Made by a program: the position numbers and the translations under genes. From IMG/VR virus record IMGVR_UViG_3300020180_000014, positions 1 through 64,000 of that record: a DNA stretch of 64,000 bases, one strand, 5' to 3'. This document shows, one piece after another, positions 11,124 to 44,966 of this stretch; the stretch's first letter is position 1, and each line of letters starts with the position of its first letter. Below the pieces are notes generated by a model that made no database searches, was not told where the DNA came from, and saw nothing but the letters and a program-made list of their open reading frames with translations. The stretch is from a virus.

Positions 11124-11991
11124 TTCGAGCGTAGAAGAACGACCCAGCGAAGAGCGTTGGCAAGCGCTGGGATTTGCAGTCGCGTGACCAGCACACCCCC
11201 CATCGATGGAATTACCATTGAGACACCGCTCGGCAACCGGAATCGGTTGATATCCGTTGAGCCCACATTCTCGTGGGTCAGCGTCATGCTTCCTGCACCC
11301 TTGTTGAAGATCCAGGCGAGCGGAAACCCGTTGGTCATGAGTATGTTGGCCGGTTCAAGGCCATTGACTGTCGAACCGCCACCGGGTGGTTGAACACTGT
11401 TGAAGCACCCGTAGATCGCGACGTTGTTGAACGTGCCGCCTTGAAGTACGACGCGAACGCCATGATCACATCTGCGAGTTCAAGGACGTTGAACGAACCA
11501 GGGACGGCAAGGCCGCGAACCTCGACAATTTCAGTACCGTTACCGCCCTGTGTGTCTTTGATTACGTGAAGCGCTTGTGCGTTTCCAAATCCCGGTACGC
11601 CGATGACTACTGCATCGGTTGGATTAACCAGGGATGTGATCCCGGGCGTAGGTCCAGCATCACGCTCCCACGGGGATGTTCCACCCCCACCTCCACCAGC
11701 GGCTGCCACGAAGGGACGTGGTGTAAGTTCCGTCGTTTGGACTGCACCCAACACGCGCGGGATGCTGTGCTTCAATTCCAACCAGACGTTGACGGTGACT
11801 GGATCCACGTTGTTGTTGGTGACAGTGCAGGTCGTTGTCGTGACAGCGATGGCGAACCCTCCGACGTCGAGTGCTACGAAATCGGGCACCTGCGGTATTC
11901 CGTTGATGTTAATCTGGTGCGGTAACGGGACGGCACCACCGCCACCAGGAACGTCAACGAAGGTGAGAATTTGAATGAGACGATCGGCCAT
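11120..11991 (-). CDS. fibre-like protein split in two ORFs (11335-11991 and 11120-11338), probable frameshift near 11465
   Basis: the downstream frame is open and codon-typical from about 11478 (GVRVVLQGGTFNNVAIYG...). Confidence 0.55.
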
Positions 11992-12006
11992 GCTCCGAGG
12001 ATAGGC

Positions 12007-12022
12007 GATCGCATACGCGATC
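12007..12022. promoter_or_regulatory. GATCGC-N4-GCGATC palindrome
   Basis: GATCGC ATAC GCGATC; on the - strand followed by gcc-TATCCT-6 nt-ATG (11991). Confidence 0.65.
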
Positions 12023-12041
12023 GGCTACTCGGCGTCGGTCA

Positions 12042-33701: not shown

Positions 33702-35648
33702 ATGGTCAACGTCAACAACCGCGAGAACCTGGGTCCGGCCGAGCGCATCATCGCGTCGGTCCTCACGTACACCGATCACCTCTATCACGGTCGCCCCGGC
33801 GTTGTGGTCGAGGACAAGCGTACCAACATCGGTGTCCGTTGGGAGCCGGTGACGCCGAAGACGGAAGAGATCAACGGCGCCAAGCGCGAGGTCATCTACA
33901 AGCTGTCGAAGAGCGGCAAGAAGACGCTCAAGACGAAGATCGGCGTGGTCACGCAAGCTGTTGGTACGCATGGCGTGATCAAGCATGTGCGCACGGACGT
34001 GAGCCCAAACCATCCGATCGTCGGTGAGTACCGTGACGCGGGCATCTTCCCCGAAGTCGCAGCGTGGATGTATCGCCAGATCGTCGAGGTCTACAAGCTC
34101 GACAACGAGTTCGCCGCGAAGTGGGCATCGTTCGCGTACGCGCAGGATCACCGTGACCTCAAGGTCGTGCTCGCTGCGTTCATGCTCGTGCAGGCGCGCC
34201 GTGGTGACGCCGTGCTCGACGGCGGTAAGGTCGCGTTCCACGACGATGACTTCCGTGACGTCGGCGAGGCCATGATGCTGATCCGTCGCAAGGACGGTAA
34301 GGATCTGAACCCGAAGCTGCTGCTCCGCATCCGCGAGGTGCTGATGCTGCCCGAGATTGCAGCGATCAACCTGGAGCTGGGCTTCGGCAAGTCGACGCGT
34401 CATCCGTTCCTCGGTCGTTGGCCGGAGGTCACGGAGAAGTGGCTGCGCTATCGCGAGGAGAATCGTCCGCTGCTCATCGGTCTCGTCAAGGCCGGTTTCC
34501 GCAAGACGGTCATCCAGCTCGCGCGCCGCGTGCACTACAAGCCGAACACGCAGTGGTTCTTTGAGGAGCTGCGCTGGAAGCAGGTGCAGTCGGATACGGG
34601 TCACCGCACGATGGTCGACATCAACATCGTGCAGGCCGAGTCGTGGAACGAGCTGACCGAGGCACAGGTCTGCGAGAAGATCGTCGCCGAGAAGCCGGAC
34701 TGGAAGCGCATCACGGGCATGCTGCCGAAGGGCCTCATGACGCGTGCTGTGGTCGCAGCGGCCATCGAGGCGAAGGCGCTCTCGGACCGTGACCTCGTCA
34801 TCGCGACGCCGACGCTGGAAGAGCTGGGGCTGCTCGACGTACCGACGATCAAGGCACGTTGGGAGAAGGCGCTCAAGCACGCCGAAGATTCCCGCGCGGT
34901 CAACATCGCGAAGAACGTCCAGTCCAAGGAGGTGAAGGAGAAGCTCGTCGAGGCATCGGACAACGCCATCAAGAAGGCCGTCGAGGAGGTCTCGAAGAAC
35001 ATCCGCGTCTACTTCTTCGTCGACATCTCGGGCTCGATGAAGTCGTCGATCGAGGCTGCGAAGTTGCACGTCGCGAAGTTTCTCCAGGGCTTTCCACCGG
35101 ACCGCACGCACATCGCCGTGTTCAACACGGTGGGCCGCGAAATCAAGCTCAAGCACGCATCGGCGGTGGGCGTCGCCAACGCGTTCCAGGGTATTGCTGC
35201 GAGCGGTGGCACCGACTATGGCGCGGGCGTGCGCGAGCTGATGCAGTACAAGCCTCTGCCGGAAGAGGATGTGCTGTTCATCTTCGTCGGTGACGAGGAG
35301 GCACACGCGTTCGATCAGCAGGTTGTCGCATCGAGGCTCAACCCGATGGCGTTCGGCTTCGTGAAGACGATCCCGGACAACGGTGCAGCGGCGTATCGCC
35401 ATGGTCTGCACAACGGCGAGAACAACATCGCGGTTCGCGAAACGGCGAACCGTCTGAAGATTCCGTGCTTCATGATCGACGAGAAGACGTTCGATGACGC
35501 GTACGCGATCCCGCGCACGATCAGGAACCTGATCGCGGCAACGCCCGTCAACATGGCGCGTGTGGCGGCAGTCGCTGCGGCACCGCGTCTGACGTTTGTC
35601 GATCAGATCCTCAAGACGGACCTGCTGAAGAAGCCTGTCTGGGCGTGA
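33702..35648 (+). CDS. helical-solenoid plus vWA protein, TROVE/Ro60-like
   Basis: RBS GAGGAG; long alpha-helical N-terminal region followed by vWA MIDAS DISGSM, GGTD, VGDEE; TROVE assignment is from architecture only. Confidence 0.6.
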   Translation: MVNVNNRENLGPAERIIASVLTYTDHLYHGRPGVVVEDKRTNIGVRWEPVTPKTEEINGAKREVIYKLSKSGKKTLKTKIGVVTQAVGTHGVIKHVRTDVSPNHPIVGEYRDAGIFPEVAAWMYRQIVEVYKLDNEFAAKWASFAYAQDHRDLKVVLAAFMLVQARRGDAVLDGGKVAFHDDDFRDVGEAMMLIRRKDGKDLNPKLLLRIREVLMLPEIAAINLELGFGKSTRHPFLGRWPEVTEKWLRYREENRPLLIGLVKAGFRKTVIQLARRVHYKPNTQWFFEELRWKQVQSDTGHRTMVDINIVQAESWNELTEAQVCEKIVAEKPDWKRITGMLPKGLMTRAVVAAAIEAKALSDRDLVIATPTLEELGLLDVPTIKARWEKALKHAEDSRAVNIAKNVQSKEVKEKLVEASDNAIKKAVEEVSKNIRVYFFVDISGSMKSSIEAAKLHVAKFLQGFPPDRTHIAVFNTVGREIKLKHASAVGVANAFQGIAASGGTDYGAGVRELMQYKPLPEEDVLFIFVGDEEAHAFDQQVVASRLNPMAFGFVKTIPDNGAAAYRHGLHNGENNIAVRETANRLKIPCFMIDEKTFDDAYAIPRTIRNLIAATPVNMARVAAVAAAPRLTFVDQILKTDLLKKPVWA

Positions 35649-35656
35649 GGTGAACC

Positions 35657-36604
35657 GTGAGCTGGCGAGATCTACTGCACCAGGACGACGAGCGCATCGT
35701 ACTGCCGTGGATCGGTGGTCGCGAGGTGCGGTCGTTCTCGCGCACGTGGACGCTCGTCGGTGACGTACCGGCTGAGCACGGCTGGTACAGCTTCACGCTG
35801 CTCAAAGGCCGAAGCGTAACACTGCACGCAGTTGCAGAACTGCACGCTGCGACGCTCGGTCAGGTGCACTTCGGTTACCTCGTCGGTGATCACTTCGCGA
35901 CTGAGTCTTTCATCGAGCGCGTTGTAATCGATCCAAAGGACGTCGCCAAGCGTCTGCCGCGCGTGCACCTGATCAACGACGACGTCGATCGGTTTGCACG
36001 CGTCAGCATCGGTTCGGTGACGTCCGACGGTCCACTGTTCTTTCGTCAGGTCGAGATGCCGCTGGGTCCCGAGGACGACGTACTGCGTGCGTACGAGGAC
36101 CAGGCTGCCGACGTCAACGCCATCAAGGGCGTCACGCCCGCACTCGATGCGGCGTTTCGGATGGCAGCGTGGCAGCGTACGGAGGCTGTTCGTCGTCGCG
36201 CGGAACTCGAACGGCTGCGCGTCGAGGAAGAGGCCAAGCGTGCAGCCGAGGAGCGTCGCCAGAACCTGGTCAAGCAGCTCGGTGACGGTGCCGGGCGTCG
36301 CGAGATGGCGAAGGTCGACTTCGAGGCTGCCGCACGTGCTGCACTTACGGTTGGCGGTGCTGAGCTGCTCGACTGGAACAAGGTACGCAACCGCAACGAG
36401 TGGGTCGTGCGCTATCGCCTCGATCGTCGTCGGTTCGAGTGCGTCTGCGACGAGCGGCTGCACATCGTCGACGCCGGAATTTGCTTGGTCGATCACCGTA
36501 CCGGTATCAAGGGCGACACGCGCTTCACGTTGGAGTCGCTACCGGCGGTTGTTCGTCAAGCCATGCGCGAGGGCGTGCTGGTTGTTTTCAGGAACGTCAA
36601 CTAG
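35657..36604 (+). CDS. putative E2-like ubiquitin-conjugating domain protein
   Basis: C-terminal LHIVDAGICLVDH...TLESLPAVV resembles the E2 HPN...G.ICL active site plus the following helix; operonic with JAB, Ubl and E1. Confidence 0.5.
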   Translation: MSWRDLLHQDDERIVLPWIGGREVRSFSRTWTLVGDVPAEHGWYSFTLLKGRSVTLHAVAELHAATLGQVHFGYLVGDHFATESFIERVVIDPKDVAKRLPRVHLINDDVDRFARVSIGSVTSDGPLFFRQVEMPLGPEDDVLRAYEDQAADVNAIKGVTPALDAAFRMAAWQRTEAVRRRAELERLRVEEEAKRAAEERRQNLVKQLGDGAGRREMAKVDFEAAARAALTVGGAELLDWNKVRNRNEWVVRYRLDRRRFECVCDERLHIVDAGICLVDHRTGIKGDTRFTLESLPAVVRQAMREGVLVVFRNVN

Positions 36605-36611
36605 GAGTGTT

Positions 36612-36791
36612 ATGGCGAAGAAGATCGAAGGTACGTTTCACATCTGCACACGCGATCAGGCTGGGCGGTACTGCATCAAGGGCGAAGGGCGTGTCGACGA
36701 GCACAACAAAGTCGACGTCGAGATCATCGTGCACGATCACGAAGCGACGAAGCCGTACACGGGACGCAAGTTCACACTCATCATCGAATAG
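36612..36791 (+). CDS. small hypothetical protein
   Basis: RBS AGGAG. Confidence 0.6.
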   Translation: MAKKIEGTFHICTRDQAGRYCIKGEGRVDEHNKVDVEIIVHDHEATKPYTGRKFTLIIE

Positions 36792-36795
36792 CACT

Positions 36796-37149
36796 ATGGA
36801 CGTCGAAAAACTGCAAGCTGACATGCGAGCCGCTGCTGAAGCAGGCCTCAAGCGCGATGCTGCAACGGTGCGCGCGAAGATCAACGAACGGAAGCCGCCG
36901 ACGCCCCACCTGTTCGACGCGCTCGAATCGATCGGCGCAACGATGGATCCGATGTGGGAAGGCGAGTGGGAGGGCCCGGTCCTGTTCAACGATCCCAAAG
37001 GCGCCTCGCGGTTGATCCTCGTCACGCCTGCCGACCACGACGAGTTCCTGACGTGGGCGACAGCGCATCCGAACTTCACCGACGAAGAATTGCAGGAGCA
37101 AGGCCGTGCGTTCCTCGTGCGCATGTGCGCGAGGCCAGTCAACCCGTGA
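36796..37149 (+). CDS. hypothetical protein
   Basis: operonic, typical codons. Confidence 0.6.
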   Translation: MDVEKLQADMRAAAEAGLKRDAATVRAKINERKPPTPHLFDALESIGATMDPMWEGEWEGPVLFNDPKGASRLILVTPADHDEFLTWATAHPNFTDEELQEQGRAFLVRMCARPVNP

Positions 37150-37577
37150 GCGTTGAATGGTCGATGGAGAAGGTCGCCGAACAGTTCCGGCTCGACGTTC
37201 GCGCACGCTTCGAGGCTGAGAACGCAGAGTGGCTCGCCGAAGAGCGTACAGGCATCGCGAAGATCAAAGCCGACTGCGATGCGGCAGGCGAGGCGTACCC
37301 GGACTGGCTTACGCCCGAGCGCAACAGCTTCTACTGGGAGATCTACAGCACCAGTGAGATCGCGATCGTCAACAACTCGGTCGACGTGCTGTTGCCGACG
37401 AACTTCGCGGTCTACCCCAACTTCATTGCGATGTTCGGCAAGACGTCAGTCGGTTGGTCGATCCCGTCGGTCGAGGCGAAAATCGTCGACGGTGAAGCGC
37501 GCCTGTTCGTGCACTTGATCCTGATCGACTACTGGGATGACGAACGCCACGCGAAGTGGCTGAAAGAGAACCCGTGA
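37146..37577 (+). CDS. hypothetical protein
   Basis: GTGA coupling. Confidence 0.6.
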   Translation: MSVEWSMEKVAEQFRLDVRARFEAENAEWLAEERTGIAKIKADCDAAGEAYPDWLTPERNSFYWEIYSTSEIAIVNNSVDVLLPTNFAVYPNFIAMFGKTSVGWSIPSVEAKIVDGEARLFVHLILIDYWDDERHAKWLKENP

Positions 37578-38314
37578 CAACACCACCCCGCTACTACCTC
37601 GACACTGAGTTCATCGACGACGGCGTGACCGAGACGTTGCAGCTGATCTCGATCGGTATCATCTGCGACGACGGCCGCGAGCTGTACCTCGTCAACAGTG
37701 AGTTCGACGAGAGCCGCTGCGACGACTGGCTCAAGGAGAACGTCCTCAAGCAGCTACCGCTGTGCACGTGTCCGGGCGGGGGCGCGTTGGATCATCTCGG
37801 CCACAACGCGCCGGACTGCAAGTGGCGTACGCGCAATCAGATCCGGGATGCGATCATCGCGTTCGTTCCCGATCCCGGCAACGAAGTGAAGCCCGAGTTC
37901 TGGGCGTTCTTCGCGAGCTACGACTGGGTACTGTTCGCACAGCTGTTCGGCAAGATGATCAACTTGCCGAAGCACTTCCCGTGGCTCGTCAACGACCTCA
38001 AGACGTGGGCCAAGCACCTGGGCTACACCGGCAAGTTCAAGGAGCTGTTGCCGAACACCGGTCATCATGATGCTCTCGCGGATGCGCGCTGGAACCGCGA
38101 CGTGCACAAGATCCTGATGGAGAAGCTCACGTCCACGCAGAAGCTGTTGGGGACGACACTCGTCGAAGCGATGGCGCTCTACGACGAGAAGTGCACCGGT
38201 TGCAACCTGCAGACGTCCTGCGAATGTCCGAGCAGTGGACACGGCGCAGACTGCCGTCGCGATCGTGAAGCGGCCGTGCGCAAGGTCATAACCGATCTGG
38301 GGCTGACGTCGTGA
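37574..38314 (+). CDS. DEDD 3'-5' exoribonuclease (Rv2179c-like)
   Basis: YYLDTEF, LISIG, ASYDW, HDALADARW. Confidence 0.85.
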   Translation: MTTPPRYYLDTEFIDDGVTETLQLISIGIICDDGRELYLVNSEFDESRCDDWLKENVLKQLPLCTCPGGGALDHLGHNAPDCKWRTRNQIRDAIIAFVPDPGNEVKPEFWAFFASYDWVLFAQLFGKMINLPKHFPWLVNDLKTWAKHLGYTGKFKELLPNTGHHDALADARWNRDVHKILMEKLTSTQKLLGTTLVEAMALYDEKCTGCNLQTSCECPSSGHGADCRRDREAAVRKVITDLGLTS

Positions 38315-38589
38315 ATCCGGTCATCGAGAAGCTCATGCCAGATGCACGCGATACGTACTGCACGGGCGCATTGTTCAAGTACGTCCAGCACAAGTACAAC
38401 TGCGACTGGCTGCAGCCGATGTGGCACAAGGGTCCGTGCGACTGCGGACTCAAGGAGTTGATCCAGCAACTGCCTGAAGGTTTGCTGCGAATCCTCGTCG
38501 AAGCGAGCGAACACGTGCGCGCGACCGTCGAGGGTATCAAGCAGGACAAGGAACGCGACGAGCGAGAAGCCACGGAGAAAGCACCATGA
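38311..38589 (+). CDS. hypothetical protein (H-x-x-x-C...CDCG)
   Basis: coupled ORF. Confidence 0.6.
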   Translation: MNPVIEKLMPDARDTYCTGALFKYVQHKYNCDWLQPMWHKGPCDCGLKELIQQLPEGLLRILVEASEHVRATVEGIKQDKERDEREATEKAP

Positions 38590-38990
38590 TGGAGACCGGA
38601 GTCGTCGTCAGCATTCACCACGAGCCCATCTTCTGGCACGAACCCGGTGGACGTTCGAGCGGCGCGTTGCCGGATAGTCGCATGCTGTGGGACGTGTTGT
38701 GGCAGGCGAACCGCGACGGTTGGCTTTCGGGTTTCGCGCACACGCATCCAGGTGGCGGTCTGCCGGGTCCATCGCGCGAGGACATCTCGTCGTTCGTCGC
38801 GATCGAGAACGCGATCGGTCGGCCGCTCAACTGGTGGATCGTCAGCTCGGACATGACCGTGCTCGTGCGCAAGTCGACGATGGACAGCATACCGGGTCGC
38901 GAGATTTTCGGTACGACACGCATCGACGATCCTGTGTGGACGCCGGATCTGCGTCGTCGCTCGGGCATGGGCCGGACGCCGTATCGCTGA
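38586..38990 (+). CDS. JAB/MPN+ (JAMM) metalloprotease
   Basis: N-terminal E plus HTHP-x5-PSREDI (HxHx7Sx2D). Confidence 0.85.
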   Translation: MMETGVVVSIHHEPIFWHEPGGRSSGALPDSRMLWDVLWQANRDGWLSGFAHTHPGGGLPGPSREDISSFVAIENAIGRPLNWWIVSSDMTVLVRKSTMDSIPGREIFGTTRIDDPVWTPDLRRRSGMGRTPYR

Positions 38991-39010
38991 TCCCTGCTGC
39001 GACGTAGCTC

Positions 39011-39039
39011 TTGACTTGCCGAGCCTTCGTCGTTAGGGT
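39011..39039 (+). promoter_or_regulatory. sigma70-like promoter
   Basis: TTGACT-17-TAGGGT. Confidence 0.65.
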
Positions 39040-39064
39040 CAGGGTTCATCGAGAGGACTGTGCC

Positions 39065-39508
39065 ATGGCTGATAACGAGCTGATGCGTGTGATCAAGGAC
39101 GACGAGGCCCGCGTGAACGTCACGTGGAAGAACGCGAACGGCGACCTGCCGGATCCGGTGTTCCGTGACTCGTCCGAGGGTGACGTCCGTGGTTGGGTGA
39201 CCGAGGCCGTCCGTAACGGTGGCGTGCCCGGTATCACTGCAGACCGCGATGCGAACTTCGCCGACTACATCGTGGATCGCTTCCCGCCGACGGAAGCGCG
39301 CCCGTACAACCTGATCCAGGTGCGCCCGAAGACGGCGTTCGGCGCTGACATCGAGGATGACGGTCCGAGCGACGCCGAGATCGAAGACCAAGAGATCGAA
39401 CGGCAGATCGAGGCTCAAGAAGAGGCTGCGATCGAGCAGCGTGCCGAGGATCAAGAGATCGAACGGCAGATCGAGGCTCAAGAAGAGGCCGCGATCGAAC
39501 AGGTCTAG
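39065..39508 (+). CDS. ubiquitin-like (beta-grasp) protein ending KTAFG plus acidic C-terminal extension
   Basis: ARVNVTW...GDLPDPV...helix...LIQVRPKTAFG; between JAB and E1 genes; RBS GAGG. Confidence 0.65.
   Translation: MADNELMRVIKDDEARVNVTWKNANGDLPDPVFRDSSEGDVRGWVTEAVRNGGVPGITADRDANFADYIVDRFPPTEARPYNLIQVRPKTAFGADIEDDGPSDAEIEDQEIERQIEAQEEAAIEQRAEDQEIERQIEAQEEAAIEQV
39383..39502 (+). repeat. 63-nt tandem duplication (EDQEIERQIEAQEEAAIEQ x2)
   Basis: copies start at 39383 and 39446. Confidence 0.9.
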
Positions 39509-39510
39509 TC

Positions 39511-40011
39511 GTGCTGCGCGTCGTCTCAGGTGCACTGATCCGCGACGGCTACGTGCTGATGGGTTTGCGTAAGAAGAGCGCATACCGACCTGACCTCTGG
39601 GAACTTCCCGGAGGAAAGATCGATCCGGGCGAGTCGCCGCACCAAGCGCTTGTCCGCGAGTGGAGTGAGGAGTGTGGTTGCCGCGTCGAGCCCGGCCAGT
39701 TTCTCTCGATGGCGATACTGCACGTCGACATCTCGTTCGTCATCGAGCTGTACACGATTCGGCTCGTCATGGGCACGCCGATGGCGCTCGACCATCAGGA
39801 GCTGCGTTGGGTCAATCCGTTGTACGCCGTCCAGCGGCTGCCGTGCTCGCCTGCATTCTACCTGCACTACCCGCAGCTCGTGAAACACATCGAAGCCAGC
39901 TGGTCGATGTCGACGTGCGACGTCGTCGGAGACAGCGGTTGCACGAACGATGAGTGTTCGCGTTGCCACCCTCTCGCGAAACCTGTACGGGCTCTTCACG
40001 AGTCGTGGTGA
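39511..40011 (+). CDS. Nudix hydrolase (MutT-like)
   Basis: WELPGGKIDPGESPHQALVREWSEECG. Confidence 0.9.
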   Translation: MLRVVSGALIRDGYVLMGLRKKSAYRPDLWELPGGKIDPGESPHQALVREWSEECGCRVEPGQFLSMAILHVDISFVIELYTIRLVMGTPMALDHQELRWVNPLYAVQRLPCSPAFYLHYPQLVKHIEASWSMSTCDVVGDSGCTNDECSRCHPLAKPVRALHESW

Positions 40012-40349
40012 TGCCGACCGTCGGTTGGTCCGGTATTCGTCGTGCCGTCGTATGGGCGTTCGAAGCGAAGACGCTCTGGGGCAAGCTGCTGTATGCGGTC
40101 GACGAGCGCGGTTACGACGCTGTCGATGCAATTTCGGCGGCGCTGATCGTGAAGCATCCGGCAATCGCGCGAGAGATCCGACTCACCAGTACGCTGACCG
40201 CACGCACGACGAAGTCGATGGACTTCCACTCAACGTCGGTACATGGCATCGGCTCGACGGACAATTGGCCCTGGAAGGGTCAACTTGTTGAGGTGCACTT
40301 GAACGATGATCAACGACTCGTTGCCGTGTGGTACCAGGAGAAAGGATGA
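40011..40349 (+). CDS. hypothetical protein
   Basis: TGATG coupling. Confidence 0.55.
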   Translation: MPTVGWSGIRRAVVWAFEAKTLWGKLLYAVDERGYDAVDAISAALIVKHPAIAREIRLTSTLTARTTKSMDFHSTSVHGIGSTDNWPWKGQLVEVHLNDDQRLVAVWYQEKG

Positions 40350-40546
40350 CCGTGCAGCTCAGTCTCAGTGAAGTTCAGGTCGCCGTCGCTGACTATCTTC
40401 GCAAGCGTGGCGTGGTCGTCGAGGACGCTGACCAGGTGCAGCTCGTCAACTTCAGCACGCATACCGGCTACGTCAACATTGCTCATGTCACGCCGATGGT
40501 CGTGGTCCGTGATGCCAAACTGCCGGAGGGCGGGCCGTACCGATGA
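40346..40546 (+). CDS. small hypothetical protein
   Basis: ATGA coupling, RBS AGGAG. Confidence 0.6.
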   Translation: MTVQLSLSEVQVAVADYLRKRGVVVEDADQVQLVNFSTHTGYVNIAHVTPMVVVRDAKLPEGGPYR

Positions 40547-40851
40547 TCGAGACCGTGTTCCATACCGTGGTCTGGACCGAGACACCGACGAACATCACGA
40601 TGTCGCTCGGGCTCGAAGGTGCGCTCACGACCCGTGAAGCAGCCGAACGCGTGGCGACTGCGTACCGTGAGTTTCTGCAAGCCGACTCCGACGACGGGCT
40701 CGTACAGGCGTACTTCGCGCGTGTGGGCATCCTGGAGATTTCGCGCGCACACCCACAGCTCAAGCACCCCGAACCGCGCGTGGACGTCGACGCGATCGTC
40801 GCCGAGATCGAAGCGCGAACAGCACGCAAACGCGAAAAGAGGCTCTCGTGA
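40543..40851 (+). CDS. hypothetical protein
   Basis: ATGA coupling. Confidence 0.6.
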   Translation: MIETVFHTVVWTETPTNITMSLGLEGALTTREAAERVATAYREFLQADSDDGLVQAYFARVGILEISRAHPQLKHPEPRVDVDAIVAEIEARTARKREKRLS

Positions 40852-41345
40852 GACCGGACTGGGATACGTACTTCATGATCATCGCCGACGCGGTGTCGAT
40901 GCGTGCGAGCTGCGACCGTGCGCGCGTTGGTGCGGTGATCGTCGTCGATAAGCGCATCATGTCGACCGGCTACAACGGCGCACCGAGCGGCGTGTCGTCG
41001 TGCGACGAGGTCGGCCATGACCTGGTCGACATCAACGGTCGTCAGAGCTGTGTGCGTGTCATCCACTCTGAGAAGAACGCCATCATCACGGCGGCGCGGC
41101 ACGGGGTTCGTCTGGCAGGTGCGACGCTCTACACGACCGCGAGCACGTGCCGCGACTGCTACATGGCGGCGCTGCAGACCGGCATCGTTCGGATCGTCTA
41201 CGGCTCCGAGTACATCGGCGGCAAGTCGTTCGATTTCGTTTCGGCGGCGCAAGCGAACGGCATAGAGCTGCGGCACTTACCGATCGCGGATGCGATCAAG
41301 AACTGGACGCCGCCGCCACACGCGGTCTCTGTCAAGGCGCCATGA
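40848..41345 (+). CDS. dCMP deaminase family protein
   Basis: RPDWDTYF, VGAVIV, GYNG, HSE.NAI, CRDC. Confidence 0.9.
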   Translation: MRPDWDTYFMIIADAVSMRASCDRARVGAVIVVDKRIMSTGYNGAPSGVSSCDEVGHDLVDINGRQSCVRVIHSEKNAIITAARHGVRLAGATLYTTASTCRDCYMAALQTGIVRIVYGSEYIGGKSFDFVSAAQANGIELRHLPIADAIKNWTPPPHAVSVKAP

Positions 41346-41575
41346 AGTTCGGGGCGTACCACTGCGAGCGTGGTTGGGTCGTAGACACGGGCGTGGGCGG
41401 TACGTACGCATGGGACGTGGAGCAGGCTCAGTGGCATGACAGTGTTGAAGCGGGGATCGATGAATTGGTTGCGACTGACATCGTCGATGCAGTGGATGCG
41501 TCAAGGTTCCCGGATGAACCAGCGACGGCAAAGTCTCTCGAACAGGGCGGCTGGCGATTCTTGCGATTGCTCTAG
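41342..41575 (+). CDS. small hypothetical protein
   Basis: ATGA coupling. Confidence 0.55.
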   Translation: MKFGAYHCERGWVVDTGVGGTYAWDVEQAQWHDSVEAGIDELVATDIVDAVDASRFPDEPATAKSLEQGGWRFLRLL

Positions 41576-41587
41576 GGGAAAACAACC

Positions 41588-42184
41588 ATGAAGACCGTAA
41601 CCATCGTTGGTGTCGGCGCGCTCGGCTCGCACGTCACGCAGTTTCTCCGCAACGAGGCGAACCTGCGCGTGATCGACTTCGATCGCGTCGAGGCTAAGAA
41701 CATCCTGTCGCAGTTTCATGGCAAACCGGGCGGCGGCAAGCTCAAGGTCGAGGCACTCAAGGGTGCGATGCAGTTCCTGTGGGGAACGAAGCTCGACGTG
41801 CGCAGTGCGAAGCTGGAGTCGAACAACGTGATCACGATGCTGGCGGGCAGCGACCTGATCATCGATTGTCTCGACAACGGTGCTGGCCGTCGTGTGCTTC
41901 AGGCGTACGCACGCGGTGACGTTGCACATGCACCGGGGCATCGCGAGCAGACGCCGTTGCTCCACGGCGCACTTGCTGCTGACGGTGCGTTCGGCCGTGT
42001 GATCTGGGATGAGAACTTCGTAATCGACGAGAACGACGGCGGTGCCGCGACATGCGAGGACGGCGAGCACCTGCCGTTCATCGTGATGGTGTCGAGCTTG
42101 ATCGCACAGTCCGCGAAGGTCTACCTGAAGACGGGCAAGAAGCTCGGCTGGTCGATCGCACCTACGAACATCGTCGGGGTGTAG
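41588..42184 (+). CDS. ThiF/E1-like adenylyltransferase
   Basis: GVGALGS, IDFDRVE.KN..SQ, K.KVEAL, DLIIDCLDN, C-terminal ATCE. Confidence 0.9.
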   Translation: MKTVTIVGVGALGSHVTQFLRNEANLRVIDFDRVEAKNILSQFHGKPGGGKLKVEALKGAMQFLWGTKLDVRSAKLESNNVITMLAGSDLIIDCLDNGAGRRVLQAYARGDVAHAPGHREQTPLLHGALAADGAFGRVIWDENFVIDENDGGAATCEDGEHLPFIVMVSSLIAQSAKVYLKTGKKLGWSIAPTNIVGV

Positions 42185-42196
42185 TAGGCTCGCTAC

Positions 42197-42406
42197 GTGA
42201 ATGAGATCGTGATCAGATCGACGTGGATCGTCGGTAACGGTGACTGCATCGAAGCTGGTGCGCGCAAGCTGAGTGGCAAGAAGATGAAGCCCCGCAAGAA
42301 GCGTGGCAAGCCGATCTCGCCTGCAGCACGGTTGGAGATGCAGGCGAACATCGCTGCAGCTCGCGAACGCCGTCGTTGTGGGAGCGAGATCACGCGAAGG
42401 AGCTGA
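42197..42406 (+). CDS. small basic protein
   Basis: K/R-rich ORF. Confidence 0.5.
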   Translation: MNEIVIRSTWIVGNGDCIEAGARKLSGKKMKPRKKRGKPISPAARLEMQANIAAARERRRCGSEITRRS

Positions 42407-42789
42407 TGCCGCTCCCCGCCGGTAAGCCTCGGACGTTGACAGGTCGTGTCGCCTATCGCATGGTCGACGCGCTCGAAGAAGCATTCAAGCGGGTTAACCA
42501 GGCCGACTTCGAGTACATCCTCATGCTCGGTGCAGCGCAGGCGACAAAGACAGCGCTCACGCCCGAGGACTTCGACAACGATCAGGGCATCGACGCGTTG
42601 ACAGCGATCTTCGCGATGCTGACGAAGGAACACGATCGCGACGTGATCCACGTGACGCCGGAGTGGCGACGCGTCGTGGTCTCCGCGCGGCGGTTGATGC
42701 CGCAACGAACAGGTGAACGGTTCTGGCGTTGGAAGGCGAACGGCGAGGCAAACCTGGTGCACGTCGTCGTGATCCCGGGTTTGCCATGA
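42406..42789 (+). CDS. hypothetical protein
   Basis: TGATG coupling, RBS AAGGAG. Confidence 0.6.
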   Translation: MPLPAGKPRTLTGRVAYRMVDALEEAFKRVNQADFEYILMLGAAQATKTALTPEDFDNDQGIDALTAIFAMLTKEHDRDVIHVTPEWRRVVVSARRLMPQRTGERFWRWKANGEANLVHVVVIPGLP

Positions 42790-42794
42790 ACCTC

Positions 42795-42823
42795 TTGACA
42801 AGGTCAGAACCCTTCGCTAGGGT
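42795..42823 (+). promoter_or_regulatory. sigma70 promoter driving the ncRNA array
   Basis: TTGACA-17-TAGGGT, about 8 nt upstream of RNA1. Confidence 0.8.
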
Positions 42824-42831
42824 GCTTTTCA

Positions 42832-42925
42832 GCTGGTCACCACCAGCGTCGAGCTTACAAGCGCCCGCATGGGCATCATTCCTACCATCTGGAAAGAAAC
42901 CAGCTCGACGCACTCGGTGACCGGT
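42832..42925 (+). ncRNA. Y-RNA-like RNA 1
   Basis: terminal stem GGTCACC/GGTGACC, internal loop ACCAG/CACTC, 9-bp stem CGTCGAGCT/AGCTCGACG, two inner hairpins. Confidence 0.7.
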
Positions 42926-42931
42926 CATCAC

Positions 42932-43056
42932 GAAGGATAAGGAGACTGGGTCTCCGCTTCCCTTACCCGGAAAGTTACCCTCACAGTAACAACTCGCTGC
43001 TTCGGCAGCACCCGCGACTGTGCACACGCTGGTTGGTTCGATTCCAACATCCTTCA
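42932..43056 (+). ncRNA. tRNA-like RNA 2 (acceptor stem plus T arm, enlarged body)
   Basis: GAAGGAT/ATCCTTC+A; T arm GTTGG-TTCGATT-CCAAC; AACTC-[GCTGC TTCG GCAGC]-ACCCG. Confidence 0.7.
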
Positions 43057-43092
43057 CGACGCTCTGTTTGCGACACTGACAACTGAAGACTC

Positions 43093-43224
43093 GGGGATTT
43101 ACCGCCGGTCGGTTCCGGCACTTGAATACGGATCAAGCTATCCAACAGCGGCACTCGGCGCCTTCAAAACACGCCACCAGTCGATTGTTTACAAGCCCGA
43201 GGTTCGACTCCTCAAATCCCCACC
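43093..43224 (+). ncRNA. tRNA-like RNA 3 (acceptor stem plus T arm, enlarged body)
   Basis: GGGGATTT/AAATCCCC+ACC; GAGG-TTCGACT-CCTC; CACTC-[GGCG..CGCC]-ACCAG. Confidence 0.7.
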
Positions 43225-43346
43225 GAGACCGTCACCGCATACGCGCTCACACGCAAGCTCAATTGGTAGAGCAACGGCCTTATAAGCCGTAGGATTCGGT
43301 TCAAATCCGAAGCTACACAACACAGCGCGTATCACTCGACGGTTTC
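43225..43346 (+). ncRNA. Y-RNA-like RNA 4 with tRNA core (D, anticodon UAU and T arms; no acceptor stem)
   Basis: GAGACCGTC/GACGGTTTC, loop ACCGC/CACTC, ATACGCGCT/AGCGCGTAT, enclosing tRNA arms at 43257-43311. Confidence 0.75.
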
Positions 43347-43350
43347 ACTA

Positions 43351-43405
43351 TGACCCCGAAGTCCAAGCGACACTGCATTGCAGTCTAGCCCACACGGAGG
43401 GGTCA
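43351..43405 (+). ncRNA. possible fifth small structured RNA or terminator hairpin
   Basis: TGACCCC/GGGGTCA closing stem, short T run downstream. Confidence 0.35.
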
Positions 43406-43426
43406 ACCCTTTTTCGGAGAAGTGTC

Positions 43427-43873
43427 ATGCGTACCAGCGATCCCAAGCCGTACACGGCACCGCACGAACGCATCGCAGCGCACAAGCAGTGGAACATCGA
43501 GTACAACGCACACGTCGCGGCGCTCGAAGCGGAGTACGGTGTTCCGTACGAGAAGCTGCCGATGGCGTTGAAGCACGGGGCGCCGAAGCATCCACGCCGG
43601 ACGAAGGCTCGCCGTTTCGACTACCGCGTGTATGACCGCACGTGGCGCATCCGCTCGCTCATCGAGCAGCGTCGTCGCGGTGTCGAGCGCAATGGCTGGC
43701 GCACTGAGCGTCGTACGTTCCTCGCCGACGTCGAGCGGTTCCGCCGCGCCGAGGTCGAGGTCCGCAAGCAGCGCGCTGTGAAGAAGGGCCGTGGCAAGCC
43801 GCTACCGAAGAACCACTTCGCGTCGCGGCGTAATGCCGTCGAGAAGCGTGAGTTCCGCGAGAAGAGCTGGTGA
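43427..43873 (+). CDS. basic hypothetical protein
   Basis: RBS GGAG; R/K-rich. Confidence 0.7.
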   Translation: MRTSDPKPYTAPHERIAAHKQWNIEYNAHVAALEAEYGVPYEKLPMALKHGAPKHPRRTKARRFDYRVYDRTWRIRSLIEQRRRGVERNGWRTERRTFLADVERFRRAEVEVRKQRAVKKGRGKPLPKNHFASRRNAVEKREFREKSW

Positions 43874-44069
43874 AGCGCGGAACCCGGCGGTGGCGACGCT
43901 TTCTGCGTCGCGAACCACACAACGCGAGCTGGTGCGACTCGATGTGCGATGCGCACAGCGGCCGTGGTGATCGTCGACACGCACGCGCACGCGGTGATCG
44001 TATAACGGATCACGAAATCGCATCTGGCATCGAAGTCCACGCGATCGAGCACGTCGACACCGTCATCGC

Positions 44070-44426
44070 GTGTATCGTACCGGCGTGTTGATTCAAGGTG
44101 GAATCGTCCTCTGCAAGTGCGGCGAGAACGCTGCACGCTACATCAACGAGCGTGGCGAGCTGTGCTGCGGGATCTGCCCGATCAAGCAGGGTCTTGATGC
44201 GATCAAGCTCGACGACGTGCCGCAGCTGCTCGGTTGGGCGCGTATCACGCTGGAGTACCTGCACGGGCAGCACGTACCGGCGGGCGATTCGATCCGGAAG
44301 ATGCTCGGTGAACGTGCTGCTGTCGTGTGCACGGATCTCGAATGCAACAAGAAGTGCAACTGTCACAACCGAGGCTGGGGCGGTCACAGTGAATCGATGT
44401 GCGTGCACTTGACGGCTGCGTTGTAG
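44070..44426 (+). CDS. Cys-rich hypothetical protein (start probably about 44088)
   Basis: CxC, CCxxC, CxxxCxC. Confidence 0.5.
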   Translation: MYRTGVLIQGGIVLCKCGENAARYINERGELCCGICPIKQGLDAIKLDDVPQLLGWARITLEYLHGQHVPAGDSIRKMLGERAAVVCTDLECNKKCNCHNRGWGGHSESMCVHLTAAL

Positions 44427-44453
44427 CTCTTGACTCGTGGTAGCGTCGCGCGC

Positions 44454-44966
44454 ATGGACGAGCCCACCGTCAGCATCAAGTACTCCGACTACAACAAGCT
44501 CCGTGAAGATCTGCGAACCGTGCAGAACCAGAACTACGAGCTGGAAAAGAAGCTCGCAGCGGCGGCACTCGGTGACGACACCGTCGCGAAGCTGCTCCAC
44601 AGCGCGTTCCACTCCGCGATCAAGGTCGTGCAGTTCGCCGTCGGCAACCTGGAACCCTCGACGGTGGCAGGCTGGCCGCACGCCGCACTCGTCGAGATCG
44701 CTGACGCGATCGAGAAGATCCCGGGCATCGATCAGCACGTCGCGGAGATGCCGCCCGAGCTGAAGCACTTCGCGGCGCTCGCGGCGAGCCTCGAAGAGAT
44801 GCGCAAGGAGCGCGACAAGAACAAGGTCGTCACGATGGCGACGGCGGCTGACTTCGGTCCGAAGACACCCGAGGCACAGGCAGTTCACGACGCGTACGAT
44901 GCGAAGCGCAACGCACAGAACGAAGAGTCGAAGCTGTCCGACGCCGAGTCAACCACGTTGACGTAG
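44454..44966 (+). CDS. hypothetical coiled-coil protein
   Basis: strong codon bias; TAGCGT lies 7 nt before the ATG. Confidence 0.75.
   Translation: MDEPTVSIKYSDYNKLREDLRTVQNQNYELEKKLAAAALGDDTVAKLLHSAFHSAIKVVQFAVGNLEPSTVAGWPHAALVEIADAIEKIPGIDQHVAEMPPELKHFAALAASLEEMRKERDKNKVVTMATAADFGPKTPEAQAVHDAYDAKRNAQNEESKLSDAESTTLT

What the first reader, a model, noticed from the sequence alone, without database searches (positions are those of the whole stretch)
33702..43346. Candidate new system: TROVE/Ro60-like vWA protein, full ubiquitin-like cascade (E1, E2-like, JAB, Ubl) and an array of Y-like/tRNA-like RNAs in one viral block
Seen: on one strand lie a helical+vWA protein (33702), a protein with an E2-like G-I-C-L site (35657), a DEDD exoribonuclease (37574), a JAMM protease (38586), a beta-grasp-like protein ending in FG (39065), a ThiF/E1 enzyme (41588) and four structured RNAs sharing one internal loop (42832-43346). 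Established: Ro60/Rsr is a HEAT-ring+vWA protein that binds the terminal stem of Y RNAs. Bacterial Y RNAs mimic tRNA and can tether exoribonucleases. E1/E2/JAB/Ubl sets form bacterial conjugation systems. Inference: a virus-encoded Ro-like RNP may act as an RNA-scaffolded adaptor. It could use tRNA-mimic modules to capture tRNA-binding host proteins (for example anticodon nucleases) and tag them with the Ubl, or protect/repair RNA during infection.
Basis: partly seen in the sequence, partly recalled or inferred. Interest (0 to 1): 0.92.

Follow-up and report, generated by a model that had tools for sequence, protein, structure and literature searches.

The report
Phage Ro-like particle with ubiquitin-like cassette
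A large phage keeps a fixed gene set that puts a probable Ro60-shaped RNA-binding protein and its own tRNA-shaped small RNAs beside a small ubiquitin-like protein with its trimming protease, activating enzyme and a cysteine protein; I found this link between an RNA particle and protein tagging in no paper, so its purpose is an open and testable question.

Summary
All the named genes and four structured RNAs lie on the + strand at the stated places.

**Core module.** Five genes form it: a helical+vWA protein, a 315-aa cysteine protein, a JAB peptidase, a ubiquitin-like protein (Ubl) and a ThiF-type E1. They recur in the same order in all 13 viral loci and in the 15 of 19 MAG loci (mostly Myxococcota) that reach far enough.

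**Sixth part.** A new tRNA-shaped RNA family with strong covariation flanks the module on the same strand in 19 of 32 loci. It gave no hit in 876 kb of unrelated viral DNA.

**Ubl logic, well supported.**
- The Ubl always ends its conserved part in RPKTxFG.
- Where JAB is missing, the ORF stops exactly at that glycine (6 of 6). Where JAB is present, a tail follows (21 of 23).

**Weaker points.**
- Ro60 likeness rests on fold search (the top Foldseek hits are all Ro60) and a language-model lead. Sequence profiles see only the vWA part.
- E2 likeness rests on topology, an invariant Cys in D-x-G-[IV]-C-L and weak UBC/RWD matches.
- The β-grasp fold of the Ubl was not tested.

The exonuclease, NUDIX and deaminase are clade-specific extras.

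This scan has already reported the same system on other DNA (48 notes, at least 39 genomes). I found no paper that describes it.

The parts
33702..35648 (+). Ro60-shaped protein. It has an N-terminal beta domain (about residues 33-111), a helical repeat region (117-431) and a C-terminal vWA domain with an intact MIDAS site (D441, S443, S445, T504, D531).
   Evidence: Pfam VWA_2. AF2 model with pLDDT 77. Foldseek top hits are all Ro60/TROVE. Atlas features of residues 1-432 are nearest to TROVE clusters, score 0.86. Invariant MIDAS residues. The TROVE HMM gives no hit.
35657..36604 (+). Cysteine protein. It has two OB/S1-like barrels (5-63, 68-137), a long helix (161-209) and a C-terminal alpha/beta domain (216-315) carrying invariant Cys276 in D-[AS]-G-[IV]-C-L. 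It is the candidate E2-like carrier.
36954..37577 (+). Accessory gene of unknown function, limited to this clade.
   Evidence: Homologs found only in L002, L003 and L013. No family match.
37556..38314 (+). Accessory RNase AS-like (Rv2179c-like) DEDD 3'-5' exoribonuclease.
   Evidence: Pfam PF16473 1e-9; PHROG 2259 4e-43; NCBIfam RNase_AS 8e-39. Present only in the close clade.
38311..38589 (+). Small accessory gene (92 aa), limited to this clade.
   Evidence: Homologs found only in L002 and L003.
38586..38990 (+). JAB/JAMM metallopeptidase that trims the Ubl precursor.
   Evidence: Invariant E3, H52-x-H54, S63 and D66. Pfam Prok-JAB 19 bits, below the cut-off. Its presence goes with a tail after the Ubl glycine.
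39065..39508 (+). Ubiquitin-like protein precursor. The conserved domain is residues 1-93 (39065-39343) and ends RPKTAFG. A 54-residue acidic repeat tail follows.
   Evidence: Alignment A6 shows invariant R-P-K-T-x-F-G followed by 0-61 unrelated residues. Longer forms carry other domains after the G. Fold not tested.
39511..40011 (+). Accessory NUDIX hydrolase.
   Evidence: Pfam NUDIX 3e-13. Found only in L002 and L003.
40848..41345 (+). Accessory dCMP/cytidine deaminase.
   Evidence: Pfam 7e-22. Found only in L002 and L003.
41588..42184 (+). Minimal ThiF-type E1 (198 aa) with its adenylation motifs and invariant Cys156.
   Evidence: Pfam ThiF 7.5e-15. PADLOC Cap2 E1 part 5e-13 and NCBIfam ThiF 2e-14. 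Motifs G-x-G-A-L-G-S and D-C-x-D-N, plus C156.
42376..42789 (+). Accessory gene of unknown function that lies between the E1 and the RNA array.
   Evidence: Homologs in L002 and L003.
42796..42824 (+). Promoter-like TTGACA-N17-TAGGGT ahead of the RNA array.
   Evidence: Kept in the window, L002, L003/L135 and L136. The consensus scan does not call it, because the second hexamer matches TATAAT at only 3 of 6 positions.
42832..42926 (+). RNA1, the circularly permuted form. The 5' and 3' ends form helix A. Then come the ACCA/ACUC internal loop, helix B, the UUACAAGC linker and two small hairpins.
   Evidence: MFE and RNAalifold structure with 29 pairs, 3 of them compensatory among 3 sequences. 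CM R1 finds it in G001 (2e-25) and G002 (9e-12).
42932..43059 (+). RNA2, tRNA-shaped with a 7-bp acceptor stem. The module forms a roughly 57-nt variable arm capped by UUCG.
   Evidence: Fold. Homologs in L002 and L136; absent from L003.
43090..43227 (+). RNA3, the most widespread form. It is tRNA-shaped with an 8-bp acceptor, a 5-bp D-like hairpin, an anticodon arm, the module as variable arm, the UACAAGCC linker and a T arm.
   Evidence: CM R2 gives 13 hits at E<1e-6 in module loci, 12 more in MAG loci and none in the controls. 34 of 37 pairs show compensatory change.
43227..43346 (+). RNA4. The module takes the place of the acceptor stem and is topped by D, anticodon and T arms.
   Evidence: Rfam tRNA 49 bits over model positions 9-63. 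Five homologs give 31 pairs, 14 of them compensatory.

Best explanation
This is a conserved six-part module of large phages, apparently of Myxococcota and neighbouring hosts. It joins a ubiquitin-like conjugation set to a Ro60-like ribonucleoprotein.

**Shown by comparison**
- The five genes and the tRNA-shaped RNA travel together.
- The Ubl is made as a precursor whose conserved domain ends in Phe-Gly.
- A JAB peptidase is needed only when residues follow that glycine.
- The E1 keeps all its adenylation motifs and one invariant cysteine.
- The 315-aa protein keeps one invariant cysteine at the position of an E2 active site.

**Inferred**
- JAB exposes the glycine and the E1 adenylates it.
- The Ubl passes as a thioester to Cys276 of the 315-aa protein and then to a target.
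- The RNAs are tRNA bodies that all carry the same stem, internal-loop and linker module, grafted in three different ways. I take them to be Y-RNA-like scaffolds.
- The helical ring of the vWA protein, the two OB/S1 barrels of the cysteine protein, or both, would bind these RNAs.
- This would bring the tagging machinery to tRNA-related substrates or partners during infection.

The target of tagging is unknown.
For: **Co-occurrence and order**
- The five genes co-occur in the same order in 13 of 13 viral loci.
- The same holds in all MAG loci long enough to show it.

**The Ubl and its enzymes**
- Every homolog keeps a glycine-ended terminus: RPKTxFG in nearly all, RPKVPFG, RPPTPFG or RPKTPVG in three.
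- Without JAB the tail after the glycine has length 0 (6 of 6). With JAB it is 1 residue or more (21 of 23). Fisher p on the earlier 20/1 versus 0/5 table is about 1e-4.
- Longer forms are Ubl plus a cargo domain that begins right after the glycine.
- The JAMM motif is intact.
- The E1 motifs and C156 are invariant.
- C276 is invariant in 27 of 27 homologs. It sits after the fourth strand of a helix-plus-four-strand domain, which weakly matches UBC/RWD folds.

**Ro60 likeness**
- The Foldseek top ten are all Ro60.
- The Atlas's nearest clusters are TROVE families.
- The MIDAS site is invariant.

**The RNA family**
- 95.7% of cells are paired, and 34 of 37 pairs show compensatory change. The covariation score is 0.745, against 0.18 for shuffles and about 0.1 for slid controls.
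- There are 25 hits in module loci, on the same strand beside the vWA gene or the E1.
- There is no hit in 876 kb of unrelated viral loci.

**Precedent**
- Ro60 genes of bacteria and phages sit beside tRNA-mimicking Y RNAs (PMC4201824, PMC12135203).
Against: - No sequence homology to TROVE can be detected.
- TM-scores to Ro60 are low, 0.2-0.33.
- The helical domain was never folded and searched on its own.
- No family or clear fold match makes the cysteine protein an E2.
- C262, C264 and H280 are also largely conserved, so a metal site is not excluded.
- The Ubl fold is untested, and it matches no Pfam family or PDB sequence.
- The RNAs lack the known Ro-binding motifs and give no Rfam Y RNA hit.
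- No RNA3-type RNA was found in Rctr197k or in about ten MAG loci.
- Nothing shows which protein binds the RNA, or that any conjugate forms.
Confidence: 0.55

Rival explanations
1. Sulfur-carrier pathway for tRNA thiolation. The Ubl would be a ThiS/MoaD/TtuB/Urm1-type carrier. JAB would trim it, as Mec+ and QbsD do. The E1 would adenylate it and load sulfur. The sulfur would then be used to thiolate the phage's tRNAs or tRNA-like RNAs.
For: - The module sits inside tRNA gene arrays in most relatives, with up to 30 tRNAs upstream and 19 downstream.
- The E1 is a minimal ThiF/MoeB-type enzyme, and its best NCBIfam hits are ThiF and MoeB.
- From knowledge of the families: JAB trimming of a carrier precursor is known from the CysO/Mec+ and QbsE/QbsD systems.
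Against: - None of the conserved module genes matched a rhodanese, cysteine desulfurase or PP-loop thiouridylase family; the intervening genes of relatives were not scanned.
- The terminus is Phe-Gly, not the Gly-Gly of the known sulfur carriers.
- This reading leaves unexplained a conserved protein with a single invariant cysteine, and a 640-aa vWA protein.
- Some Ubl genes are fused to cargo domains, like ubiquitin precursors.
Confidence: 0.15
2. Two separate things sit side by side. The vWA protein would be a MIDAS adaptor or substrate of a protein-only Ubl system, as vWA domains are in Rpn10, TFIIH p44 or the MoxR-vWA-FtsH systems that carry Ubl sets. The tRNA-shaped RNAs would act on their own, for example as decoys or spare parts against host tRNA-targeting nucleases. 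They would lie there only because this is the phage's tRNA island.
For: - The only family-level hit of the large protein is vWA.
- A vWA component combined with a complete Ubl set is described in bacterial conflict systems (PMC7159879).
- The anticodon loops of the RNAs vary and are often non-canonical, which would suit decoys.
- Several module loci show no RNA3-type RNA.
Against: - The RNA lies directly against the module, 35-500 nt from the vWA start or the E1 stop, on the same strand. This holds in phages whose module proteins are only 45-60% identical and whose surroundings differ.
- All Foldseek top hits are Ro60, with longer alignments and better E-values than the vWA-only hits.
- The same RNA module is grafted onto three different scaffolds, which points to a dedicated binding protein.
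Confidence: 0.2
3. The tRNA-mimic modules would capture host tRNA-binding proteins such as anticodon nucleases, and the cascade would tag them with the Ubl.
For: - It fits the anatomy described above.
- The anticodon loops differ between phages, as expected under an arms race.
- The phage Ro60 of phiLo binds Y-like RNAs and damps host PNPase (PMC12135203).
Against: - No host target is known.
- No data link the cascade to any substrate.
- The most conserved RNA elements are the variable-arm module and linker, not the anticodon arm.
Confidence: 0.1

Closest known systems
Ro60/Rsr with Y RNAs: Salmonella and Mycobacterium Rsr-YrlA/YrlB, Deinococcus Rsr-Yrn1-PNPase, mycobacteriophage Bxz1 gp220, and Thermus phage phiLo Ro60 with Yrl1/2 (PMC4201824, PMC12135203)
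   Same: - A helical region followed by a MIDAS vWA domain.
- A gene that lies beside small RNAs containing tRNA-like T and D arms.
- In some copies the RNA ends form a stem while the acceptor stem is closed by a loop (L005 copies). YrlA has the same topology.
- It occurs in phages.
   Different: - No TROVE Pfam match and no significant profile match.
- An extra N-terminal beta domain.
- The RNAs lack the GNCGAA / GGUCCGA Ro-binding motif and give no Rfam Y RNA hit.
- The binding stem emerges from the variable-arm position.
- Canonical Ro60 loci carry no Ubl, E1 or JAB.
Bacterial ubiquitin-like conjugation operons: Bil (Ubl, E1, E2, JAB), CBASS Cap2/Cap3, Bub operons, and the E1-E2-JAB sets of Iyer et al. 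2006 (PMC1779556, PMC10557695, PMC11601596, PMC10097602)
   Same: - A ThiF-type E1. Its best PADLOC hits are the E1 part of Cap2.
- A JAMM peptidase.
- A small protein with a C-terminal glycine that must be exposed.
- A cysteine protein in the place of an E2.
   Different: - It is encoded by phages, not by host defence islands.
- Only the E1 matches any PADLOC model.
- The E1 is only 198 aa and stands alone.
- The E2 candidate has OB/S1 barrels and matches no E2 family.
- The set is joined to a Ro60-shaped protein and to dedicated RNAs.
Dual-use Ubl/sulfur-carrier systems tied to tRNA: Urm1-Uba4, archaeal SAMP-UbaA-HvJAMM1 and Thermus TtuB-TtuC (from my own knowledge, not tested here)
   Same: A small Ubl, a ThiF-type E1 and a JAMM peptidase with a functional tie to tRNA.
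   Different: - No thiouridylase or sulfur donor was seen among the module genes.
- The terminus is Phe-Gly, not Gly-Gly.
- These systems have no conserved vWA protein or cysteine protein.
allo-tRNAs and tRNA-Sec-like tRNAs with 8/4 or 9/3 acceptor/T geometry and long variable arms (PMC5389517)
   Same: RNA3 has an 8-bp acceptor stem, a 4-bp T stem, a D hairpin with a long stem and short loop, and a long variable arm.
   Different: - The variable arm is 45-60 nt with a conserved internal loop and linker.
- The anticodon loops are often non-canonical.
- The same arm module also occurs on permuted and acceptor-less scaffolds.

Membership tests
Ro60 / TROVE | Match to the TROVE domain model (PF05731) | tested here: not met
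   No match in the whole 91-kb genome even at E 10, although the controls rang. Ten distant family members also give no TROVE hit. hhalign against a canonical Ro60 alignment gives 20% probability over the whole protein and 0.45% for the helical part alone.
Ro60 / TROVE | Helical-repeat ring followed by a vWA domain (the fold) | tested here: inconclusive
Ro60 / TROVE | MIDAS motif in the vWA domain | tested here: met
   D441, S443, S445, T504 and D531 are invariant in A1 and nearly invariant in the diverse A4.
Ro60 / TROVE | Binds Y RNA or misfolded RNA | not testable with these tools
Y RNA / YrlA | Match to Rfam Y RNA families, or the Ro-binding motif GNCGAAN0-1G / GGUCCGA near the 5' end | tested here: not met
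   cmscan at E up to 10 over 42000-44500 lists only tRNA and two chance hits. The motif, as given in PMC4201824, is absent from RNA1-4.
Y RNA / YrlA | tRNA-like domain with T and D arms, encoded beside the Ro-like gene | tested here: met
   T arms of the GGUUCGAnUCC type and D-like hairpins are seen. The RNA flanks the module in 19 of 32 loci. The permuted YrlA-like topology occurs in L005.
tRNA (decoding) | Canonical cloverleaf called by tRNA finders, with a 7-nt anticodon loop carrying U33 | tested here: not met
   ARAGORN finds 0 genes in the genome. Rfam matches only part of RNA4. The anticodon loops of RNA3 homologs vary and several lack U33.
ThiF/MoeB/E1 adenylating enzymes | ThiF domain above the Pfam cut-off, with the nucleotide-binding and Mg-binding motifs | tested here: met
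   PF00899 scores 55.2 bits against a cut-off of 28.1. G-x-G-A-L-G-S, D30/D32/R33, K53 and D93-C-x-D96-N are invariant, as is C156.
JAB/JAMM (MPN+) peptidases | E ... H-x-H ... S-x-x-D metal site | tested here: met
   E3, H52, H54, S63 and D66 are invariant in 13 sequences. The Pfam Prok-JAB score of 19.4 is below the cut-off of 25. The only PDB profile hits are RPN11, at the motif, with E about 0.5.
Ubiquitin-like (beta-grasp) modifiers | Conserved C-terminal glycine, exposed by a protease | tested here: met
   A glycine-ended terminus (RPKTxFG in nearly all homologs) is followed by 0-61 unrelated residues, and tail length tracks the presence of JAB.
Ubiquitin-like (beta-grasp) modifiers | Beta-grasp fold | not tested
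There is no Pfam or PDB sequence match.
E2 / UBC superfamily | UBC fold with the catalytic cysteine after strand 4 | tested here: inconclusive
Known anti-phage Ubl systems (Bil, CBASS Cap2/Cap3) as in PADLOC | Component proteins match the system's models | tested here: not met
   Only the E1 matches, to the E1 part of Cap2 at 5e-13. The other four proteins give nothing at E 0.1.

The most novel reading that the evidence does not exclude
An RNA-guided protein-tagging machine. The tRNA-shaped RNAs would be held by the Ro60-like ring and by the OB barrels of the cysteine protein. They would act as interchangeable baits that pick the substrates of Ubl conjugation, namely host or phage proteins that handle tRNA. 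A bolder version is that the E1 loads the Ubl glycine onto the 3' end of the tRNA-shaped RNA, as an aminoacyl-tRNA synthetase would. Either version would be the first case in which RNA directs ubiquitin-like modification.
Probability: 0.2. Interest if true: 0.92.

Novelty: new variant of a known kind. Interest (0 to 1): 0.78.

Why it matters
Ro60-Y RNA particles and bacterial ubiquitin-like cascades are each known, but nothing I could search ties them together.

Here the tie is kept across a very large family. There are 609 representative clusters of the vWA protein at 50% identity, and at least 1,989 clusters at 90%. The family spans phages up to several hundred kb and Myxococcota-associated contigs. 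It comes with a new, strongly covarying tRNA-mimic RNA family.

If the parts work together, phages have an RNA-scaffolded tagging device placed in the middle of their tRNA islands. That bears on three questions:
- how large phages protect or control translation;
- what Ro60-type rings do;
- how ubiquitin-like systems choose targets.

Every step can be tested with five small proteins and one RNA.

Tried and rejected
**Ideas tested and dropped**
1. CobT/CobS-like chelatase pair. The upstream gene is a peptidoglycan-binding protein, not an AAA+ ATPase. Only a marginal cobaltochelatase hit turned up, over the vWA part.
2. The ACC(A) strand beside helix A as a mimic of a tRNA 3' end, with ACUC as a 5' leader (an RNase P-type site). 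I dropped this because the ACC strand is not kept in the wider family; only YCUC and the UYACAAGY linker are.
3. A strict motif scan (ACTC-hairpin-ACC). It found nothing beyond chance in distant loci, whereas the covariance model did.
4. A C262/C264/C276/H280 zinc site in place of a catalytic cysteine. It is weakened, not excluded, because C264 is Val in 6 of 27 homologs and H280 is Glu or Asp in 3.
5. The search for longer Ubl proteins gave only Ubl-plus-tail forms of 167-215 aa. This is weak evidence of absence.

**Searches that gave nothing useful**
6. A 15-nt pattern scan of viral contigs returned chance hits only. Those loci later served as the negative control.
7. Foldseek of the cysteine protein against PDB and BFVD gave nothing below E 1e-3. 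The Atlas search of its C-terminal domain gave no usable hit.
8. pdb_via on the vWA model listed only vWA domains.

9. The look-up of encoding contigs, complex prediction and the look-up of sequencing runs. As a result I ran no complex prediction and no expression check.

Full report
**What is there**

The window is the first 64 kb of a 91,395-bp viral contig with about 62% G+C, which CheckV estimates to be 68% complete. Between 33.7 and 43.4 kb all likely genes are on the + strand.

- **33702-35648:** a 648-aa protein with a C-terminal vWA domain.
- **35657-36604:** a 315-aa protein with no family match.
- **37556-38314:** an RNase AS-like DEDD exoribonuclease.
- **38586-38990:** a JAB peptidase. 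The motif E, H-x-H, S, D is invariant in 13 homologs.
- **39065-39508:** a small protein whose conserved part ends in RPKTAFG.
- **39511-40011:** a NUDIX hydrolase.
- **40848-41345:** a dCMP deaminase.
- **41588-42184:** a 198-aa ThiF-type E1.

From 42832 to 43346 lie four structured RNAs behind a conserved TTGACA-N17-TAGGGT element. ARAGORN finds no tRNA anywhere in the contig. Rfam's tRNA model matches only RNA4, and only at model positions 9-63.

**A conserved core**

The vWA protein belongs to a very large, well-conserved family.
- At least 1,989 clusters at 90% identity match it.
- At 50% identity, 609 representatives match at E 1e-3 or better, and 111 at 1e-30 or better.
- Many lie on contigs of 100-600 kb.

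In 13 IMG/VR loci and in GenBank virus Rctr197k, the same five genes follow each other: vWA protein, 315-aa protein, JAB, small protein and E1. In L013 the stored locus ends before the E1 position. The exonuclease, NUDIX, deaminase and four small ORFs occur only in the window's close clade (L002, L003, L013).

Nineteen further loci come from genome bins. Most are labelled Kofleriaceae, Polyangia, Sandaracinaceae or other Myxococcota. They show the same compact order. This points to Myxococcota and neighbouring hosts, though binned phage contigs cannot be told from resident elements.

In most relatives the module lies inside the phage's tRNA gene arrays, with up to 30 tRNAs upstream and 19 downstream.

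**The ubiquitin-like logic**

- **The Ubl terminus.** In every homolog the conserved domain of the small protein ends in glycine: RPKTxFG in nearly all, RPKVPFG, RPPTPFG or RPKTPVG in three. After that glycine come 0 to 61 residues that are unrelated between phages. They include zinc-ribbon-like tails, an acidic repeat in this window, and in some cases a whole conserved extra domain.
- **The link to JAB.** In the six loci that lack a JAB gene, the ORF stops exactly at the glycine. In 21 of 23 loci with JAB, at least one residue follows. Fisher's test on the earlier 20/1 versus 0/5 table gave about 1e-4. This is the signature of a ubiquitin-type precursor trimmed by its protease.
- **The E1.** It keeps the G-x-G-A-L-G-S nucleotide loop, the D-x-D-R ... 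K-N ... Q block, the D-C-x-D-N magnesium site and one invariant cysteine, C156. Its best defence-system matches are the E1 halves of CBASS Cap2.
- **What I could not test.** I could not fold the small protein, so its beta-grasp fold is inferred from size, terminus and context only.

**The 315-aa protein**

The AlphaFold model (pLDDT 85) has four parts:
- two small beta barrels;
- a 49-residue helix;
- two short helices;
- a C-terminal domain with four strands, a loop and a helix.

In 27 homologs Cys276, in D-[AS]-G-[IV]-C-L, is invariant. C262 is kept in 26, H280 in 24 and C264 in 21. The motif, its place after the fourth strand and the gene's position argue for an E2-like thioester carrier. 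A metal site is not excluded. I rate the E2 reading at about one in two.

**Is the large protein Ro60-like?**

The model (pLDDT 77) shows a beta domain (33-111), a long helical region (117-431) and a vWA domain (434-613).

*For:*
- All ten best Foldseek matches in the PDB are Ro60/TROVE structures: frog and human Ro60, Deinococcus Rsr and Thermus phage phiLo Ro60. They align over 500-616 columns, with better E-values than the vWA-only matches.
- A language-model search with residues 1-432 alone returns TROVE and DUF2828 clusters first, at score 0.86, which is only a lead.
- The MIDAS residues are invariant.

*Against:*
- TM-scores are 0.2-0.33.
- The TROVE HMM sees nothing in the genome or in distant family members.
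- Profile-profile comparison with an alignment of canonical Ro60 proteins, built from mycobacteriophage Bxz1 gp220 and its relatives, gives 20% probability over the last helices plus vWA. For the helical part alone it gives 0.45%.

The protein therefore resembles Ro60 in architecture, but it is not a demonstrable member of the TROVE family.

**The RNAs**

RNA1-4 are kept, with the same promoter, in L002, in the contig of L003 (which lacks RNA2 but has a fifth, RNA4-like copy) and in the contig of L013. All four carry one module:
- helix A;
- an internal loop with YCUC on one strand (in this clade, ACC on the other);
- helix B;
- a UYACAAGY linker.

The module is grafted in three ways:
- as a 45-60-nt variable arm of an otherwise tRNA-shaped RNA (RNA2, RNA3);
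- as the terminal stem of a circularly permuted form, in which the RNA ends form helix A (RNA1);
- in place of the acceptor stem (RNA4).

The L005 copies of the permuted form add a canonical T arm, a loop-closed acceptor stem and a D arm. That is the topology described for YrlA (PMC4201824).

A covariance model of RNA3 gave these results:
- 13 matches at E below 1e-6 in module-bearing viral loci, in phages whose module proteins are only 55-60% identical;
- 12 more, in 9 of 19 genome-bin loci, always on the module's strand and 35-500 nt from the vWA start or the E1 stop;
- none at E 0.01 in 876 kb of unrelated viral loci.

On the 13-sequence alignment, 95.7% of cells pair and 34 of 37 pairs show changes on both sides. 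The covariation score is 0.745, against 0.18 for shuffles and about 0.1 for slid partners. The alignment was fitted to the model, which inflates these figures somewhat.

Anticodon loops differ between phages and several are non-canonical, so these are unlikely to be decoding tRNAs. No Rfam Y RNA family and no known Ro-binding motif is present. No RNA3-type RNA was found in Rctr197k or in about ten genome-bin loci, some of which are cut short.

**Reading**

The safest statement is that a ubiquitin-like activation and trimming set, a cysteine protein with RNA-binding-type barrels, a Ro60-shaped vWA protein and a dedicated tRNA-mimic RNA form one inherited unit.

The most likely working model is a Y-RNA-like particle coupled to Ubl conjugation. 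Which protein holds the RNA, what gets tagged, and whether the tagging is regulatory or offensive are all open.

- **Sulfur-carrier rival.** It fits the tRNA setting, but no sulfur donor or thiouridylase was seen. It leaves two large conserved proteins unexplained.
- **Adjacency-only rival.** It is hard to square with how closely the RNA hugs the module across divergent genomes.

**Literature and earlier notes**

Phage Ro60 with Y-like RNAs is published (PMC4201824, PMC12135203), and so are bacterial Ubl cascades (PMC1779556, PMC10557695, PMC11601596).
- A survey of jumbo phages mentions TROVE proteins but no JAB, ThiF or Ubl link.
- A preprint on Asgard viruses lists a Ro60 and three ThiF genes in one virus without connecting them.
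- A vWA protein joined to a full Ubl set is described only for MoxR-FtsH conflict systems.

I found no description of this module.

Within this scan it has been reported many times on other DNA: 48 notes in at least 39 genomes, with several follow-ups reaching much the same reading and one marked 'part of it fell'. My scores rest only on what I tested here.

Noticed in passing
window 43347-43419: Downstream of RNA4, a stretch (CCGAAGUCCAAGCGAC ... hairpin ... CUAGCCCAC ... GGG-loop-CCC plus a U run) is kept in the window, L002, L135 and L136. It may be a fifth small element and a weak terminator. The terminator scan does not call it.
   Followed up: partly
whole contig G000:C1 (window 1-64000 and beyond): This phage has no tRNA gene that ARAGORN can call. 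Relatives with the same module carry 20-46 tRNAs within 10 kb of it. The close clade keeps only the tRNA-shaped RNAs and, in L002, L135 and L136, one tRNA-Met.
   Followed up: partly
L001 (KX853510.1 Virus Rctr197k) 11129-14028: The GenBank record lists the vWA gene only as a misc_feature. It misses the 315-aa gene altogether and annotates an opposite-strand CDS over it.
   Followed up: no
P0399, P0401, P0402 (Ubl homologs of 210-215 aa): In some relatives the Ubl is fused, right after the FG, to a conserved domain of about 120 aa (motif GEGGHHPTGGWPYDGKDH). This resembles ubiquitin-fusion precursors. The function of the cargo domain is unknown.
   Followed up: no
window 33702-34034 (residues 1-111 of the vWA protein): The N-terminal beta-rich domain is missing from the most distant family members (519-574 aa, matching from profile position about 110). 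Those members have the length of a canonical Ro60.
   Followed up: no
window 35590-35648 (C-terminus of the vWA protein): The last residues (L-L-x-K-P-x-W-A) are nearly invariant across the family but were modelled with low confidence. They may be a docking peptide.
   Followed up: no
L135 2066-2190: The relative G001 has an extra RNA4-type copy after its tRNA-Met. Its tRNA-like body has an 8-nt anticodon-type loop.
   Followed up: partly
L152 12006-12667: In one genome-bin locus the order of the Ubl and JAB genes is swapped, and the Ubl has no tail although JAB is present. JAB may therefore also act as a deconjugase.
   Followed up: no
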